Source: an uncultured Verrucomicrobiae bacterium
GTDB taxonomy: Bacteria; Verrucomicrobiota; Verrucomicrobiia; Chthoniobacterales; UBA10450
Reading direction: 5' to 3'
Assembly: GCA_963815455.1 (NCBI GenBank)
Contig: CAWFGO010000001.1
Coordinates: forward strand, 128,001-192,000
Length of the DNA stretch: 64,000 nt
Shown here: positions 38,494 through 51,919 of the stretch, piece after piece
How positions within the stretch are numbered: the first letter of the stretch is position 1
Layout of the letters: each line of letters opens with the position of its first letter
The notes under the pieces: generated by a model
The model's input: the letters and a program-made list of their open reading frames with translations, nothing else
What the model was told of the DNA's origin: nothing
The model's database searches: none
Position numbers and translations under genes: made by a program

Positions 38494-39764
38494 TTAGATC
38501 GACAACCCCTCTTTGGCGGTGGCCGCTTCCACTGCGGCTGTGTCGGCGGCGAGATACTTCATTCCCACCAGCCACAGCAAACCCGCAACCAGCATCATTC
38601 CCGACACCACCAGAAAGGCGACCGTCATGTTCGTGTGCCCGCCAATGAAGCCAATGGCGGGGAACGCTGAAACATCGCCCAGTGCGTGAATTACGAGAAT
38701 GTTCAAAGCGAACGCAGTCGCGCGGACCGCGGGCAGCGACACATTGGCGATGGCAGTGTTTGATGGACCGATATTCAAGAAAGCGAAGAAGACGGAAACA
38801 AAAAGAAATATCCACGCTGCCGGAAACGGCACGTAGAGCATGGTGACAAAAAACGGAAACGCCAGGAGCATTCCGACCCCGGAAACCAGGAAGTAAGCTC
38901 CGCCAAAACGCGCCCGCAATCGATCCGCCAGCCAACCGCCGAGCAGGGTTGAGATCAGACCCGCGCTGGCGGCGATGAAGCCGAAGATTACCTTCCCGGA
39001 AGCGGGCGACTGGCCTCGGTAACGCAAGTATTCAGCCATCCAGAAAGCGAGGCCACCTACGGCAAAAGTCGTGGCCGTTTGAGCAAGCGTGTTGATGACA
39101 TAGGAGCGCGCCCGAAAGATCTCGCGGTAGTCGTGCCAGGTGGCGCGTTGTTTTTTGGCCGTTCAATCCCGCGACTCCGTGGATCTCGTTGCGTAAAGCA
39201 AAGCACGCCGAGCAAGAGACCGGGGGGCGTGACCATGTAAAACACCCATCTCCAACCCAAATGCGCGCTGATTGACCCCGCCAGAACGTAGCCGAGCGCA
39301 CTGCCGACCGGGATTGCCGCGCAAAACATTGCGATGATCCGACCGCGCGTGGCCAATGGAAAATGATCGGCCAGGATCGTGGGCGCTGCCGGCCCGTAAG
39401 CACCCTCGCCGATCCCGACAAGAATTCGCATGCCCACCAGGCACGAAAATGTGGCCGCCAAACCGGAGGCGCCGCTGGCCAGACTCCACAAAATCACGGC
39501 ACATCCTATTATCAGCCACCGCGAAAAACGATCGGCCAGCCAGCCAAGCGCGGGTGCCGCCAGCATGTAGGTAATAAGAAATGCGCTCCCCAAAGCGCCA
39601 GTCGTCGCCATGGCGTTGAGATCGGTCGGCAAGAAGAACGTGTCCCGAATCTCGGGCTCAAGAGCGGCCAGAACCTGCCGGTCGATGTAATTGAAAAGAT
39701 TGATCCCGAGCAAGAGCGCCAGGGCAGTCCACGCGCTGGATGTCGATCTTGGCGTGGATGTCAT
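38494..39764 (-). CDS. MFS transporter (spinster-like), frameshift(s) around 39040-39150
   Basis: INLFNYIDRQ, GWLADRFSR, RILVGIGEGAY, GGWLADR, IHALGD. Confidence 0.88.
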
Positions 39765-45622: not shown

Positions 45623-45887
45623 GAAACCACCACCGCGTGACTGAAACCTTCAACGCTCACCGCTCCAGGCCCAACACTCAACTCATTTGCCAGTCATCCC
45701 GAGGCGCGAAGACGCCGAGGGATCTCACAAGTTACGGAACAGCTGCGTAAATAATACGAGCACCGGTTCGAATTCCAATCCGTCCCTCGCGAGGTCCCTC
45801 GCTTCGCTCGGGATGACAAACAAATGACGCCACGCTTCCAGGTCGCGTTGACACGCCCCGCGACGTGTTCAACTTTCTTTGCCTCGC

Positions 45888-45938
45888 GCCAGGGTAGCTC
45901 AGCGGTAGAGCAGCCCCGAAAGCTTTCGGGGTTGGTCG
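45888..45938 (+). repeat. tRNA 5' fragment copy with the anticodon arm replaced by CCCCGAAAGCTTTCGGGG
   Basis: gccagggtagctcagcggtagagcag is identical to the tRNA 5' end, followed by the palindrome and ttggtcg. Confidence 0.9.
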
Positions 45939-45973
45939 CATCCTGAGTTAGAATTGGCGCTACAAAATTTGCC

Positions 45974-46045
45974 GCCAGGGTAGCTCAGCGGTAGAGCAGG
46001 GGACTCATAAGCCCTTGGTCGGGAGTTCAATTCTCCCCCCTGGCA
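45974..46045 (+). tRNA. tRNA with CAT anticodon (Ile2 or elongator Met); CCA not encoded
   Basis: Acceptor GCCAGGG/CCCTGGC, D arm GCTC/GAGC, loop CTCATAA, T arm GGGAG-TTCAATT-CTCCC. Confidence 0.93.
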
Positions 46046-46052
46046 CTCCCCT

Positions 46053-46295
46053 GTGCCGTGGATTTATATTTTGAAAGGTTCATCTGGCCGACATTACATC
46101 GGGTCGACAATTGATCTGGATGCACGACTGGCTCAGCATCGCCGCGGCCACACCCATACAACCAAAAGGCTTGGAAAAAATCTGGACGTGATAGCAAGTA
46201 AAGAAGTAGGGACGCTCGATGAAGCGCGTAAAATCGAGCGGGCATTGAAGGCAAAGAAAAATCCGCAACTCGCCATTCACGCGTTGCAACCCTAG
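46053..46295 (+). CDS. Small GIY-YIG nuclease family protein
   Basis: WIYIL....RHYIGST.DL..RL.QH.....TTK ... A.KIE..LK. Confidence 0.9.
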
Positions 46296-46348
46296 AGCAG
46301 CCCCGAAAGCTTTCGGGGTTGGTCGGGAGTTCAATTCTCCCCCCTGGC
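46293..46348 (+). repeat. tRNA 3' fragment copy with the anticodon arm replaced by CCCCGAAAGCTTTCGGGG
   Basis: tagagcag + palindrome + ttggtcgggagttcaattctcccccctggc, identical to the tRNA outside the anticodon arm. Confidence 0.9.
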
Positions 46349-46386
46349 GCTCCTTCGCCGGAAGGCGATTTCACATCGGATGCAAA

Positions 46387-46477
46387 GGTGGATCGGCCGT
46401 TCCGCGGACGATGCTAACCAAGTGGCGGTCTCCGGCCGCGTAAGATTACCATCGAGCGACTGAGCGCTCGATCCACC
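46387..46477. repeat. Family F palindromic element (GGTGGATCG ... CGATCCACC)
   Basis: Related copies at 20438-20525 (inside smc) and 42008-42113 (aas 3' end). Confidence 0.85.
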
Positions 46478-46481
46478 TCCC

Positions 46482-47256
46482 CTAGTCTTTCTCCTTGGCT
46501 ACGTATGGCCTCAGATCTTTTTCATGGCCACGCAGCGCGGCCATAAAGCAAACGCCGTTGCGTTCCTTTCACTACGCCGGCCCAGCCCTCCTGCTCGACA
46601 TAGCGCCAACCCGAAAATTCCCGCACGGCGCCGGTCTTGGGATCTTTCTCGGCCGGGAACAGAAACAACTGCATTTTTTTCTCCACGATCCAAATCTGGG
46701 CGACGCGATGGCCGTCCTCGTCGTCGAAAACGCGCCAGCCGATCGTGCGAAAATCGGCGAACTCGGGGGGGACATCGTAGCGCTCCAGGTGGTGCTTCAT
46801 AAAAAAGAGATCGCCTAACGTGCCGGCATCGGCCGAAACCGGCTCGAGCAGGACCGATCTCGTCGAACCGGCGGTAGCCAGCAATTTTCTGGCAGCGCTG
46901 ATTCCCGGGAAATCGTGCATGTGTTCGATAAACTGGAAAACGAACACGCCCGCGATCACCGCCAGAGCAAGACCGATTGCCAGCACGGCCGGATTTTGGG
47001 CCGTTTTCTTCCAGCTAAACTTGTGGCTGGGAGCAAGGTCTTCACTGGAAAACCATTCCGCCACGTCCCCCGGAATCGGAATGGTTTGAATCAGCGCGGC
47101 CACGGCGCGATCAAAGCTCTGCTGGTTGGCAAATTCCTCCGTCCCCCGCGCGCGAAAAACCGCCGCGCGCATGAATCGATCGTCTATGAGCTCCTCGTTG
47201 ATGGGAGCGAGATTCAGCAAGACCCGTTGCTGACGAGACAACTGAACCGGTTTCAT
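46482..47256 (-). CDS. Single-pass membrane protein, possible anti-sigma factor; frameshift near 46567
   Basis: Overlaps the stop of a sigma-like ORF; central TM AVLAIGLALAVIAGVFVF; C-terminus continues in a shifted frame to TAG at 46482. Confidence 0.55.
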
Positions 47257-49206: not shown

Positions 49207-49805
49207 CTAGTAGTTCTTCGCTACGGCGTCCCAATTCACCACGTTCCACCAAGCCTTGATGTAGTCGGGTCGGCGATTTTGGTAATTGAGATAGTAAGCG
49301 TGCTCCCAGACATCGAGGCCGAGGATCGGGGTGTTGCCGTCCATCAGCGGACTGTCCTGGTTCGGAGTGGAGACCATTTCAAGCTTGCCGATTTGTTTTT
49401 GATCAACCAGGCCCAGCCGCTGCCGAAACGGCCGGCACCCGCGGCGGCGAACTTCTCCTTAAACGCGTCAAAGCTGCCAAAGGTGGATTTGATGTCGTCG
49501 GCGAGTTTGCCTTTCGGTTCGCCGCCGGCTTTCGGGCCCATGATTTTCCAAAAGAAGGAATGGTTGGCGTGACCGCCGCCGTTGTTGCGGACAACAGTGC
49601 GAATGTCTTCCGGGACCGCGTTCAGATTGCTGATCAAATCCTCGACCGATTTGCTTTCCAGATCGGGTTTGCCTTTGATCGCGTTGTTCACGTTGGTGAC
49701 GTAAGCTTGGTGATGCTTGGTGTGATGGATTTCCATCGTGCGCGCATCGATGTGCGGCTCCAGAGCATCGTAGGGATAAGGTAATTTCGGTAATTCGTAA
49801 GCCAT
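49207..49805 (-). CDS. sodA: Mn/Fe superoxide dismutase, frameshift near 49395
   Basis: [47 protein letters not shown] in the shifted frame. Confidence 0.93.
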
Positions 49806-49816
49806 AATATGTACTG

Positions 49817-51919
49817 TTAGATCGCTTTAGCGACGATAACAGGTTTTATTTTTTCTCGCGCGACGGACCTGTGGCATCGGCGTCCTGCCAGATGTGACAT
49901 GGTGCTCGGAAGCCCATGCGCACTTACGACGCAGCTGTAAAATCCGGGACGCGTGTTCAGGCCGTTCCTGTAATTCACGTAGGTCGCGAGCGCGAGGAGC
50001 GGGAAATTCTGCCGGTACATGTCGTATTTGAGATAGAACACCTTCGGAAATCCGGTGCCGGTGATTTGCGGCTCGTCCCATGAGCCGTCTGGCTTTTGCG
50101 AATTGAGCAGGAAACGCAAGTCCGCGCTGGATGCTCCGGCCGATCGAGATCGCCGCAGGCACAAATGCCCATCAGCGCCCAGGCCGTTTGCGACGCGGTG
50201 CTTTCGCCTTTGCCTTTCATCTGTGGATTGTCGTACGACGCGCAGGTTTCGCCCCAGCCGCCGTCATCGTTCTGACAACTCTCCAGCCAGTCGCGGCCGC
50301 GCAGAATCCAGTCTTGCGTCATGTCCTGGCCGATGGCGCGCAGGCCGCGCAGCACCTGCCATGTGCCATAAATATAATTGACGCCCCAACGCCCGTACCA
50401 GGAGCCGTCGTTTTCCTGCGTTTCGATCAGATATGCGAAGCGCGCGTTTCACCGCCGGATGCATTGCGGTCGAAACCGATGTAACCGAACAGCTCCAGCG
50501 TGCGCGCGGTCAGATCGCTGCAGGTCGGGTCGAGAATGGCGTTGTGGTCGGCGAATGGCATGTCTTCGAGCCAGGGCGTCGTGACGTCCTTGTCGAACGC
50601 TGCCCAGCCGCCGTCGCGGCATTGGAAACTGAGTTGCCACGGAAGGGCCCGCCCAAAAACCGCATCCAGCGACCGTTGCATCGTGCGGCCGGACGAGCCG
50701 CAGCGCCATGAGCACCATCGCGGTGTCGTCCGTGTCGGGATAGTAAACGTTGTTGTATTCGAAAGCCCAGCCGCTCGCTTCCGGATGCGAATTATTTTTC
50801 GCCCAGTCGCCGCGAATTCGGACCTCCTTTTCCAGCAGCCAATTCGCGGCCTTTTGCAGCGCCGGGTGCTCCGGCGGAAGGCCGGACTCGGCCAGCGCGA
50901 TCACGTTGATGGCAGTGTCCCAAACCGGCGACAGACAGGGCTGAATACGAAAATCTTCCGGATCATCGACAAATAGCCCGGCAAAATCCTTTCTCGCTTT
51001 TTCAAACAGCGGATGGTTCTTCGGCGTAACCGAGTGCGCGCAGGGCGATCAATCGAATTGAGCATCGCCGGAAAAACGGTGGCCAGCCCGTCGCTTCCCT
51101 CGCCGATCCGCTCGACCATCCAGCGTTCGGCTTCTTCCAGCGCGACCCGGCGCAGTGGGCATACCAGCAGACCGCCGATAAACTTGAGGACATCGTCGGC
51201 TCGCAGGAAAAAATTTCGCCAAGTAAAAAAGCGCGCATCGCGTGGCAGGGTGAAATCTTCGTGCTCGGTGCCGAGCGGATAAAGCTCGTGCAGATGCTTT
51301 GAGGCCAGGCAAATGCCGCGTCGGTTTGAAATGATTGATGATCGCCAGCGGCACGAGCATGGCCCGGCTCCAGGAGGACATCTTGTAAATGTGAAACGGC
51401 GCCCAGGTCGGGCAGCAGGATCATTTCCACCGGAATCGTCGGCAGATAGTTCCAGGGAAACTGGCCCAGCAACGCGAGATAAAGTTTACTGAACGTGTTC
51501 AGGCGCGGGATGCCGCCGAGGCGCAGAATATTCGCGCGCGCTTCCTGCATGAACGGCAAATCGGCGGAATAACCGGCCAGCTTGAGCGCGAAATAGCGCT
51601 TTGACCGATGCGTTAATCTCGCTCGGGCCGCCGTGATAAATGTTCCAGCCGCCGTCCGGCAGCTGGCGTTTCAAGATGTGGCGGACACAGCGCTGCTGCA
51701 TTTGCTCGTCCACTTCGCCGGCCCAATGCATGAACAACACGAAGTCGGAGCAAAGCGTGCTATCCACGATCAGCTCGCCGCACCAGTGGCCGTCGGGCCG
51801 CTGTTGACGCAAAAGATTTTCCTGCGCCCGCGCGATCGCCTGCAAAATCTCCTCGCGCCGTCAGCGGATGTACGGCGCGCTGCGGCGCGCGGGCAGGTTG
51901 CGCTGGAGTCATGAGTCAT
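49817..51919 (-). CDS. shc: Squalene-hopene cyclase, broken by many frameshifts; both ends approximate
   Basis: QW repeats ([30 protein letters not shown]), YPDTDDTA catalytic motif, [11 protein letters not shown]. Confidence 0.9.

What the first reader, a model, noticed from the sequence alone, without database searches (positions are those of the whole stretch)
45888..46348. tRNA(CAU) flanked by two partial copies whose anticodon arm is swapped for a perfect palindrome, enclosing a GIY-YIG gene
In both partial copies (45888-45938 and 46293-46348) the 15-nt GGGACTCATAAGCCC is replaced at the same boundaries by the 18-nt palindrome CCCCGAAAGCTTTCGGGG. The rest matches the tRNA exactly. The GIY-YIG stop codon is the TAG of the copied D-arm (TAGAGCAG). 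Ordinary att-site duplications copy a tRNA end unchanged and come with an integrase; neither applies here. Inference: either a GIY-YIG-driven homing-like element that marks used or immune targets by hairpin replacement, or anticodon-less tRNA-like RNAs acting as decoys or processing signals.
Basis: partly seen in the sequence, partly recalled or inferred. Interest (0 to 1): 0.82.

Follow-up and report, generated by a model that had tools for sequence, protein, structure and literature searches.

The report
Nuclease-hairpin cassette nested in tRNA-Met gene
A tiny nuclease gene and its signature DNA hairpin sit inside the transcription unit of a methionine tRNA gene, leaving one working tRNA flanked by broken copies whose anticodon arm is swapped for the hairpin; the same design recurs at many tRNA genes in this bacterial phylum and looks like an undescribed kind of small selfish element.

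Summary
An intact tRNA-Met(CAU) gene at 45974-46046 is followed after 6 nt by an 80-aa GIY-YIG gene (46053-46295). Two partial tRNA copies flank this pair, and in both the anticodon arm is replaced by CCCCGAAAGCTTTCGGGG. No integrase lies nearby.

It is not a one-off. Of 80 related loci from Verrucomicrobiota assemblies, 76 have a same-strand tRNA (Met or Lys-UUU) just upstream of the nuclease gene. Seventy have a downstream 3' copy, and the hairpin stem is perfect in 140 of 151 instances. Sister nuclease clades sit at tRNA-Pro, Asn, fMet, Arg and tmRNA genes with other hairpins.

The gene is under purifying selection (dN/dS about 0.09). It is absent from the same site in a same-genus genome, and it is often tandemly amplified or decayed.

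The palindrome is also a generic repeat here (39 copies). In 41 relatives it is almost confined to genomes that carry this nuclease clade.

Best reading: a cassette pairing a hairpin with a single-domain GIY-YIG nuclease, akin to the published Ssn ssDNA nucleases, nested in a tRNA gene. That paper's main text does not contain the word tRNA.

Earlier notes of this scan describe the same design in other genomes. The mechanism is inferred, not shown.

The parts
45693..45726 (+). Genome-wide hairpin repeat of the GTCATCCCGAG...GAGGGATC type. It resembles the published Ssn-related motif. It is a neighbour of the cassette, not part of it.
   Evidence: Read. The core TCATYCYGAG occurs 401 times in the genome. 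The motif comparison is with PMC11893778.
45781..45817 (-). Second copy of the same repeat type, in inverted orientation.
   Evidence: inverted pair I3; reverse core at genome position C1:173807.
45848..45853 (+). TTGACA, a candidate -35 box of the tRNA promoter. It lies about 35 nt upstream of copy A.
   Evidence: GCGTTGACA precedes copy A where copy A exists, and precedes the tRNA itself where it does not (L022, L028, L031). This is inference; the consensus scan did not call it.
45887..45938 (+). Copy A. It consists of the tRNA 5' half (45887-45913), the palindrome (45914-45931) and TTGGTCG (45932-45938).
45939..45972 (+). Spacer between copy A and the tRNA. It is probably the decayed T-arm and acceptor 3' strand of a once complete hairpin-bearing tRNA copy.
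   Evidence: GAGTTAGAAT and TGGCG match tRNA 3'-half motifs.
45974..46046 (+). Intact tRNA-Met(CAU). It is probably the elongator.
   Evidence: It is 97-100% identical across most of the order. The other two CAU tRNAs of the assembly look like the initiator and an Ile2 type (those identity rules are recalled).
46053..46295 (+). Single-domain GIY-YIG nuclease gene (80 aa, GTG start, TAG stop inside the tRNA remnant).
   Evidence: Conserved Y5, Y15, R25, H29, E62 and N70 in 44 sequences. AlphaFold2 pLDDT is 88.6. dN/dS is about 0.09.
46293..46353 (+). Copy B. It consists of TAGAGCAG (D-arm 3' strand), the palindrome (46301-46318), and the variable loop, T-arm and acceptor 3' strand.

Best explanation
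What it is. This is a cassette of about 0.4 kb nested in the transcription unit of the elongator tRNA-Met gene. The order is:
- promoter;
- a decayed tRNA copy whose anticodon arm is the hairpin (copy A);
- the one intact tRNA;
- an 80-aa single-domain GIY-YIG nuclease gene that starts 6 nt after the tRNA;
- a 5'-truncated tRNA copy with the same hairpin (copy B). The nuclease ORF ends in it.

Shown by sequence comparison.
- The design is a family trait across Verrucomicrobiota.
- Nuclease clades go with particular tRNAs or with tmRNA.
- Hairpin type follows the nuclease clade, not the tRNA. Met and Lys cassettes share one hairpin; Met and Arg cassettes in another class share another.
- The protein is under purifying selection.
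- The 14 stem bases are almost invariant although neighbouring synonymous sites are saturated.
- The cassette is present or absent among close relatives, is amplified in tandem, and decays.

Inferred.
1. The nuclease works like the Ssn enzymes. It binds its own hairpin in single-stranded DNA and nicks nearby, so the hairpin is its cognate site rather than a scar.
2. The gene has no promoter of its own and is expressed by read-through from the tRNA promoter.
3. The tRNA-derived arms (26 and 31 nt) are the homology through which the cassette is copied into, kept in and amplified at tRNA genes by host recombination, stimulated by nuclease-made breaks.
4. Swapping the anticodon arm keeps the spare copies from being a second tRNA. 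It also splits the homology that would otherwise delete the cassette.
5. The hairpin has also spread to other stem-loop repeats of the genome.
For: Architecture.

The same design elsewhere in this genome. At tRNA-Pro(CGG) there is a different hairpin and again a stop codon in the D-arm remnant. GIY-YIG genes also follow tRNA-Pro(GGG) and the tmRNA gene.

80 related loci.
- 76 have a same-strand tRNA upstream (52 Met, 24 Lys-UUU).
- 63 have a gap of 30 nt or less (median 9).
- 70 have at least one 3' copy and 14 have two or more.
- 37 have at least one 5' copy (maximum 6), and 33 have both.
- 62 of 80 have the strict hairpin within 40 nt after the stop.
- 140 of 151 instances flanked by GNGCRG...TTGGY have perfect stems.
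- L043 has a compensatory stem variant.

Other tRNAs and hairpins. 17 of 30 loci found with the Pro-type query, and 20 of 29 loci sampled across the phylum, have a same-strand tRNA or tmRNA upstream.

Tree. Nuclease clades cluster by tRNA type: 9 label changes against a shuffled mean of 32, reached in 0 of 200 shuffles (quick tree).

Selection. Median pS is 0.77, pN 0.17, dN/dS 0.09.

Patchiness. Of 19 relatives' loci, 8 have the gene plus copy B, 1 has a remnant, 2 have copy A only and 8 have neither. A same-genus genome has an empty site.

Hairpin versus nuclease across 41 genomes. All 17 genomes with the Met/Lys-type gene hold the hairpin (2 to 52 copies). Only 3 of the 24 genomes without it do. 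In G034 the only two copies are in its cassette.

Fold. The best matches are minimal or structure-specific GIY-YIG nucleases: UPF0213, HIGLE, Slx1 and the UvrC N-terminal domain.

Ssn precedent. Ssn enzymes are single-domain GIY-YIG ssDNA nucleases that cut upstream of hairpin repeats, and those repeats flank their genes (PMC11893778; sections read).
Against: - No biochemistry exists for this protein.
- It is only weakly similar to the canonical Ssn-like gene of the same genome that is flanked by the published type of repeat (hhalign, 30 columns, E 3e-4).
- Assignment to CDD family cd10448 could not be tested.
- The flanking hairpin is not the published motif.
- The intact tRNA is identical in occupied and empty genomes. 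If the tRNA gene is the target, self-immunity is unexplained.
- The 5' boundary of copy B varies, from position 4-6 in L083 and L096 to position 21. So there is no fixed cut-and-paste junction.
- Strong purifying selection and family-wide retention would also fit a host-useful gene.
- The hairpin and gene co-occurrence rests on related genomes, which are not independent. Each cassette also adds 1-2 hairpins by itself.
- 37 of this genome's 39 hairpins lack the tRNA-derived flanks.
Confidence: 0.55

Rival explanations
1. It is a classical double-strand homing endonuclease of the SegB kind. The enzyme cuts the duplex tRNA-Met gene in or near the anticodon arm of cassette-free alleles. Break repair then copies the cassette in. 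The hairpin-swapped halves are simply cleavage-immune homology arms.
For: - The gene is patchy among relatives and a same-genus genome has an empty site.
- Nuclease clades are specific to tRNA types.
- Arrays of copy A always lie upstream and arrays of copy B always lie downstream of the single intact tRNA. That is what out-of-register repair of breaks in its anticodon arm would give.
- SegB recognises a tRNA T-arm motif and drives inheritance of its tRNA region (PMC2330249, abstract read).
Against: - The protein is 80 aa with no DNA-binding domain.
- The intact tRNA inside the cassette is identical to that of empty genomes, so it would be cut as well.
- This reading does not explain why the hairpin stem sequence is nearly invariant, why it tracks the nuclease clade across different tRNAs, or why it is multi-copy in the genome.
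- Fold matches to I-TevI are weaker than to minimal and structure-specific members.
Confidence: 0.2
2. It is a domesticated host function. The nuclease and hairpin pair serves the cell, for example by limiting recombination or uptake of DNA as proposed for SsnA in Neisseria. The tRNA location merely supplies expression.
For: - dN/dS is about 0.09 over saturated synonymous divergence.
- The gene occurs in 17 of 41 relatives and profile hits occur in 96 of 301 genomes of the phylum.
- The Ssn paper proposes domestication.
Against: - A same-genus genome has an empty site.
- There are decayed or truncated copies (L021, L026, L028, and the Pro(GGG) copy with an internal TGA) and tandem arrays.
- Several paralogous cassettes sit at different tRNAs in one genome.
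Confidence: 0.12
3. The function is at the RNA level. The hairpin plus T-arm is a 3' stabiliser or processing signal for the nuclease mRNA, or the fragments act as tRNA-like decoy RNAs.
For: - The hairpin begins 8 nt after the stop codon in the window. In 38 of 80 related loci the strict motif starts at offset 9 from the first base of the stop.
- Different cassette types use different GC-rich hairpins at the same place, with compensatory changes.
- One soil metatranscriptome contig from a relative spans the gene end and copy B (depth 2).
Against: - The stem is conserved in sequence, not only in pairing.
- Many forms are perfect palindromes with no loop.
- The same hairpin sits in unrelated repeats on both strands.
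- Neither partial copy can form an acceptor stem, and Rfam does not score them.
- G-T versus A-C mismatches show no strand bias (9 against 7).
Confidence: 0.08
4. The copies are remnants of an integrase-mediated insertion at a tRNA gene, or an assembly artefact.
For: tRNA genes are common integration sites, and integration duplicates tRNA ends.
Against: - No integrase lies within about 10 kb.
- The insert is only 0.3-0.4 kb.
- The anticodon arm is replaced.
- The same layout recurs in more than 100 independent assemblies.
Confidence: 0.02

Closest known systems
Ssn family of site-specific single-stranded DNA nucleases and their hairpin repeats (SsnA and NTS/SRM; Chenal et al. 2025, PMC11893778; Results sections 6-8 and 10 and the Discussion read)
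   Same: - A single-domain GIY-YIG protein of under 100 aa.
- The gene is flanked on both sides by a hairpin-forming repeat.
- The repeat is multi-copy in the genome and co-occurs with the gene across genomes.
- The loop sequence is free while the stem is fixed.
- This genome also holds about 401 repeats of the published motif type and two canonical repeat-flanked genes.
   Different: - Here the hairpin sits inside partial tRNA copies in place of the anticodon arm.
- The gene is nested directly behind an intact tRNA.
- Units are amplified in tandem.
- The hairpin sequence is not the published motif.
- The protein is only distantly similar to the canonical paralogue.
- The word tRNA occurs 0 times in that paper's main text. 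Its supplements were not looked at.
Phage T4 SegB, a free-standing GIY-YIG homing endonuclease in the tRNA gene cluster (PMC2330249, abstract read; PMC13096335, abstract only)
   Same: - A GIY-YIG nuclease gene next to tRNA genes.
- tRNA-gene sequence as the target.
- Non-reciprocal inheritance of the gene and its flanks; the 2026 abstract reports segmental amplification of loci.
   Different: - SegB is a phage enzyme that cuts duplex DNA at a 27-bp site.
- It does not come with hairpin-swapped partial tRNA copies.
- SegB's size and DNA-binding domain are recalled, not checked here.
- The present gene is chromosomal and encodes only 80 aa.
REP elements and their RAYT transposases, and the IS200/IS605 family (recalled; also cited in the Ssn paper's Discussion)
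   Same: A small nuclease gene is flanked by its cognate ssDNA hairpins, and the same hairpins are dispersed through the genome.
   Different: The enzyme family differs (HUH/Y1 rather than GIY-YIG). These elements are not nested in tRNA genes.
Bacterial minimal Slx1-like / UPF0213 GIY-YIG proteins (PDB 1zg2, 1ywl; PMC1564403, passages read)
   Same: These are the best sequence and fold matches. They are minimal domains without accessory parts.
   Different: - Their function is unknown.
- In PMC1564403 the word tRNA occurs 3 times in the main text; the one occurrence among the 12 passages I saw concerns a TrmH methyltransferase fusion, and no gene-neighbourhood link to tRNA genes appeared there.
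- The present protein keeps an Asn (N70), which that paper assigns to the UvrC-like lineage.

Membership tests
GIY-YIG nuclease superfamily (Pfam PF01541) | Match to the family model above the curated cut-off | tested here: met
   49.5 bits against a cut-off of 22.6, E 5.4e-13, covering residues 1-71.
GIY-YIG nuclease superfamily (Pfam PF01541) | Conserved catalytic Tyr, Tyr, Arg, His, Glu (and Asn). The roles of these residues are recalled from the literature. | tested here: met
   Y5 and E62 are invariant. Y15, R25, H29 and N70 are conserved in at least 90% of 44 sequences.
GIY-YIG nuclease superfamily (Pfam PF01541) | The characteristic fold | tested here: met
   The model has pLDDT 88.6 with strands and helices in the expected order. 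The best Foldseek matches are all GIY-YIG domains, but they are weak (E 4e-3 to 0.1, TM 0.59-0.70).
Ssn family (cd10448) | Small single-domain GIY-YIG protein | tested here: met
   80 aa with only the GIY-YIG domain.
Ssn family (cd10448) | Assignment to CDD cd10448 or placement in the Ssn clade | not testable with these tools
   No CDD library and no SsnA sequence were on hand. The comparison with the repeat-flanked paralogue of the same genome is weak (E 3e-4 over 30 columns).
Ssn family (cd10448) | Gene flanked by hairpin-forming repeats on both sides | tested here: met
   A 33-nt direct repeat holding the hairpin lies on both sides. Its ssDNA fold is -11.4 kcal/mol, z -4.65.
Ssn family (cd10448) | The flanking repeat is the published motif type (GTCATTCC...GGAATC) | tested here: not met
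   The flanking hairpin is CCCCGAA-N4-TTCGGGG within tRNA-derived flanks. Motif-like repeats lie only 60-200 nt further upstream.
Ssn family (cd10448) | The repeat is multi-copy and co-occurs with the gene across genomes | tested here: met
   39 copies in this genome. All 17 genomes with the gene hold the hairpin, against 3 of 24 without it. The genomes are kin and not independent.
Ssn family (cd10448) | Strand-specific cleavage of ssDNA upstream of the hairpin, with no activity on dsDNA or RNA | not testable with these tools
   This needs the purified protein.
Free-standing GIY-YIG homing endonucleases (Seg type) | Nuclease domain plus a separate DNA-binding region (the architecture is recalled) | tested here: not met
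   The ORF is 80 aa. The homologues are 70-90 aa in 73 of 80 loci.
Free-standing GIY-YIG homing endonucleases (Seg type) | Sporadic presence next to a conserved target gene | tested here: met
Free-standing GIY-YIG homing endonucleases (Seg type) | Cleavage of the allele that lacks the gene, and gene conversion | not testable with these tools
   This needs assays.
Integrase-borne islands at tRNA genes | A tyrosine or serine recombinase gene within the element | tested here: not met
   None among 17 neighbouring ORFs scanned.

The most novel reading that the evidence does not exclude
These cassettes are an autonomous, recombinase-free class of mobile element. A hairpin-specific single-strand nuclease lets the element nest in tRNA and tmRNA genes. 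There it replaces the anticodon arm of the displaced copy with its own recognition hairpin and keeps or brings a working tRNA. From there it seeds its hairpin into other stem-loops of the genome. If so, tRNA-gene parasitism could be the ancestral lifestyle of the nuclease and hairpin-repeat pairs (Ssn and its repeats) now found across bacteria.
Probability: 0.3. Interest if true: 0.85.

Novelty: new variant of a known kind. Interest (0 to 1): 0.68.

Why it matters
It would give a natural role, and a target, to a very large family of tiny GIY-YIG proteins of unknown function. It would link the recently described hairpin-directed ssDNA nucleases to tRNA genes. It would also explain a recurrent annotation puzzle: partial tRNA copies, tRNA-like fragments and arrays of truncated tRNAs next to small hypothetical genes.

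If the nuclease and hairpin pairs are as specific as their co-variation suggests, each clade is a ready-made ssDNA nuclease and site pair. The design also shows how a selfish element can live inside an essential single-copy gene without harming it.

Tried and rejected
- Expression data. The run search gave only small shares (0.10 or less), which reflect the conserved tRNA. Laying four runs gave cover of the tRNA and of the hairpin modules from other organisms, plus one RNA-library contig of depth 2 over copy B. That is too little to claim transcription or processing.
- Strand test. Counting G-T against A-C mismatches in the hairpin stems to tell the acting strand gave 9 against 7, which is uninformative because the stems hardly vary.
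- Staggered-cut model. I considered that the 33-nt direct repeat is a target-site duplication from nicks 7-8 nt 5' of the palindrome on each strand. I dropped it as the general rule. The 3' edge of copy A is fairly constant (6-7 nt, sometimes 9-12). But the 5' edge of copy B ranges from tRNA position 4-6 (L083, L096) to position 21.
- Immunity by tRNA polymorphism. Rejected, because the tRNA is identical with and without the cassette.
- Hairpin as a relic of the anticodon arm. Rejected for the Met and Lys cassettes, because two different tRNAs carry the same hairpin.
- Rfam gave no family for the partial copies.
- The consensus scan found no convincing promoter or terminator inside the cassette.
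- Literature searches found no description of chromosomal GIY-YIG genes with hairpin-swapped tRNA copies.
- The first locus search, with an 8-sequence alignment, failed for lack of a conserved stretch. It was repeated with 7 sequences.
- One Pfam call failed on a reference with an internal stop. It was not repeated.
- No complex prediction was run.

Full report
**1. What is there**

The window holds one tRNA gene, tRNA-Met(CAU), at 45974-46046.
- Its first 27 nt recur exactly at 45887-45913.
- Its last 35 nt recur at 46319-46353 with one mismatch.
- A 33-nt direct repeat, TAGAGCAG + CCCCGAAAGCTTTCGGGG + TTGGTCG, stands at 45906-45938 and 46293-46325.

In both partial copies the 18-nt palindrome replaces 15 nt of the anticodon arm between identical flanks. 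Two copies in 64 kb are far beyond chance: 0.02 expected, and 0 of 100 shuffles reach 2.

Between the tRNA and the downstream copy lies an 80-aa ORF (46053-46295, GTG start). It matches Pfam GIY-YIG well above the cut-off. Its TAG stop is the start of the copied D-arm strand. Neighbouring genes are ordinary, and no integrase is present.

**2. The palindrome is generic here, yet tied to this design**

The genome (3.6 Mb, 7 contigs) has 39 copies of CCCCGAA-N4-TTCGGGG. Only the two in this locus have tRNA flanks. By my count from the listing, 16 sit at the tip of a 401-copy repeat of the GTCATCCYGAG...GGATCC type.

That large repeat resembles the Ssn-related motif of Chenal et al. 2025 (PMC11893778). 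The genome also has two canonical small GIY-YIG genes flanked by it.

**3. The design is a family trait**

Two paralogues in the same genome sit directly behind tRNA-Pro(CGG) and tRNA-Pro(GGG). A third sits 135 nt behind the tmRNA gene. At tRNA-Pro(CGG) the ORF again ends in a D-arm remnant, and the anticodon arm of the 3' copy is replaced by a different hairpin.

A search of species-representative genomes returned 80 loci. Nearly all are labelled Verrucomicrobiota, Chthoniobacterales or Candidatus Udaeobacter MAGs.
- 76 have a same-strand tRNA upstream (52 Met-CAU, 24 Lys-UUU).
- 63 have a gap of 30 nt or less, with a median of 9.
- 70 have at least one 3'-half copy downstream, and 14 have two or more.
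- 37 have at least one 5'-half copy upstream (up to six units of 78 nt in L088).
- 33 have both kinds of copy.

In the Lys loci the same hairpin replaces the Lys anticodon arm. In the copy-B rows examined (Lys loci; L026), the copy matches the resident tRNA even in lineage-specific T-stem changes.

With a Pro-type query, 48 of 151 genomes of the order had a match. 17 of 30 fetched loci had a tRNA or tmRNA just upstream (Pro CGG/GGG/UGG, Asn, an Ile2-like CAU, fMet, tmRNA), and 10 had a detectable 3' copy. These carry other hairpins, such as GTCGCCGCGGCGAC and TCCGCCTCAGGCGGA.

With a profile, 96 of 301 genomes of the phylum had matches. 20 of 29 loci had a same-strand tRNA within 800 nt upstream, and 12 had a 3' copy. 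In one class a Met cassette and an Arg(CCU) cassette share CCCCGAC...GTCGGGG.

**4. Signs of selection and of mobility**

Among 24 Met-type genes, synonymous sites are saturated (median pS 0.77) while pN is 0.17. dN/dS is about 0.09 in the 105 of 276 pairs where it is defined. Against that background the 14 stem bases are perfect in 140 of 151 instances, while the four loop bases vary. L043 shows a compensatory pair.

A quick maximum-likelihood tree of 84 proteins groups them by tRNA type. The careful search did not finish, and many forks are unresolved.

Among 19 loci from relatives:
- 8 have the gene plus copy B. L021 is truncated and L026 has an early stop.
- 1 has a remnant (L028).
- 2 have only copy A (L023, L025).
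- 8 have neither.

A same-genus genome has the bare tRNA between the same two flanking genes. Tandem units occur in L018, L020, L024, L048 and L119.

Odd arrangements also occur:
- L092 and L096 have a 5'-truncated tRNA in front of the gene.
- L094 has the intact tRNA behind it.
- L111 has an inverted tRNA.

L017 and L025 come from genomes flagged unpublished (G015, G008). The tallies include these and G003.

**5. Hairpin and nuclease go together**

Among 41 relatives, all 17 genomes with a Met/Lys-type gene hold the hairpin (2 to 52 copies). Of the 24 without the gene, 3 hold it and 21 hold none.

Within the family the split is 16 of 16 against 3 of 9. In G034, from another family, the only two copies are those of its cassette.

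These genomes are related, and each cassette contributes copies itself. This is a lead, not a statistical test.

**6. What the protein looks like**

Sequence matches to solved structures are weak: UPF0213 proteins at E 0.011 and the UvrC N-terminal domain. The AlphaFold2 model is confident, at pLDDT 88.6.

Foldseek ranks UPF0213, At-HIGLE, Slx1 and UvrC-N above I-TevI. All of these are weak matches.

The catalytic set is conserved. The roles of those residues are recalled, not tested.

**7. Reading**

The closest published system is Ssn. Its members are monomeric single-domain GIY-YIG enzymes. They bind a hairpin repeat in ssDNA and cut upstream of it, and those repeats usually flank their genes (sections read). 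That paper's main text never mentions tRNA. I did not look at its supplements, which may list gene neighbourhoods.

My searches found no description of tRNA-nested cassettes. In the 2006 GIY-YIG survey (PMC1564403) 'tRNA' occurs three times in the main text; the one occurrence I saw concerns a methyltransferase fusion.

I therefore read the locus as an Ssn-like pair of nuclease and hairpin, living inside a tRNA gene and using tRNA halves as recombination arms. The mechanism is inferred. The rivals are duplex homing of the SegB kind (abstract read), a domesticated function, and an RNA-level role.

**8. Earlier notes of this scan**

A word look-up returned 20 notes in at least 20 other genomes that hold my search words. 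The 8 shown, plus one found by sequence likeness, describe the same layout; several of them say it recurs in many phyla.

Two of them pointed me to the Ssn paper, which changed my reading. I then checked the paper and tested its defining features here.

Noticed in passing
window 45693-45726 (+) and 45781-45817 (-); genome-wide: About 401 copies of a GTCATCCYGAG...GGATCC hairpin repeat occur in the 3.6-Mb genome. It resembles the published Ssn-related motif and has variable nested inner hairpins. Two canonical small GIY-YIG genes flanked by it lie at G000:C2:522238-522456 and C3:443690-443911; the latter lacks an in-frame start.
   Followed up: partly
window 46386-46478: A 92-nt element with inverted ends (AGGTGGATCG...CGATCCACCT) has about 30 copies in this genome (72-97% identity) and many in relatives. 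It is a separate, MITE-like repeat family right after the cassette.
   Followed up: partly
window 45623-46521 compared with L031 (G001) and L021 (G010): The segment carrying the promoter, the tRNA and the cassette is inverted relative to its two flanking genes (a lipase-maturation-factor-like gene and an anti-sigma-like gene) when compared with a same-genus genome and another relative. G015 shares the window's orientation.
   Followed up: partly
L019 copy A, L020 copy A, L111 copy B (relatives): A 23-27-nt secondary hairpin (CTCCGAAAGCTTTCGCGAGCAGGAG type) is inserted into the loop of the main hairpin in L019 and L111. In L020 it lies in reverse orientation in the D-loop. This looks like a hairpin-within-hairpin insertion.
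   Followed up: no
G000:C5:75223-75921 (own genome, outside the window): A GIY-YIG paralogue lies 135 nt after the tmRNA gene. tmRNA-linked homologues occur in three other genomes of the order, and one of them has a duplicated tmRNA 3' end (L143).
   Followed up: partly
window 38494-39764, 49344-49805, 50449-51559: Several housekeeping genes appear split or truncated: an MFS transporter in two ORFs, a superoxide dismutase with a partial C-terminal domain, and squalene-hopene cyclase in fragments. These may be frameshift errors of the assembly or pseudogenes.
   Followed up: no
window 45974-46046: The tRNA-Met has an A31-G39 mismatch at the base of the anticodon stem. It is kept in relatives across the order, where the tRNA is 97-100% identical.
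   Followed up: no
L088 1792-1900 (relative): A hairpin-bearing 5' copy, with its D-loop deleted, also precedes the Ile2-like tRNA-CAU gene. No nuclease gene was seen in the stretch held there.
   Followed up: no
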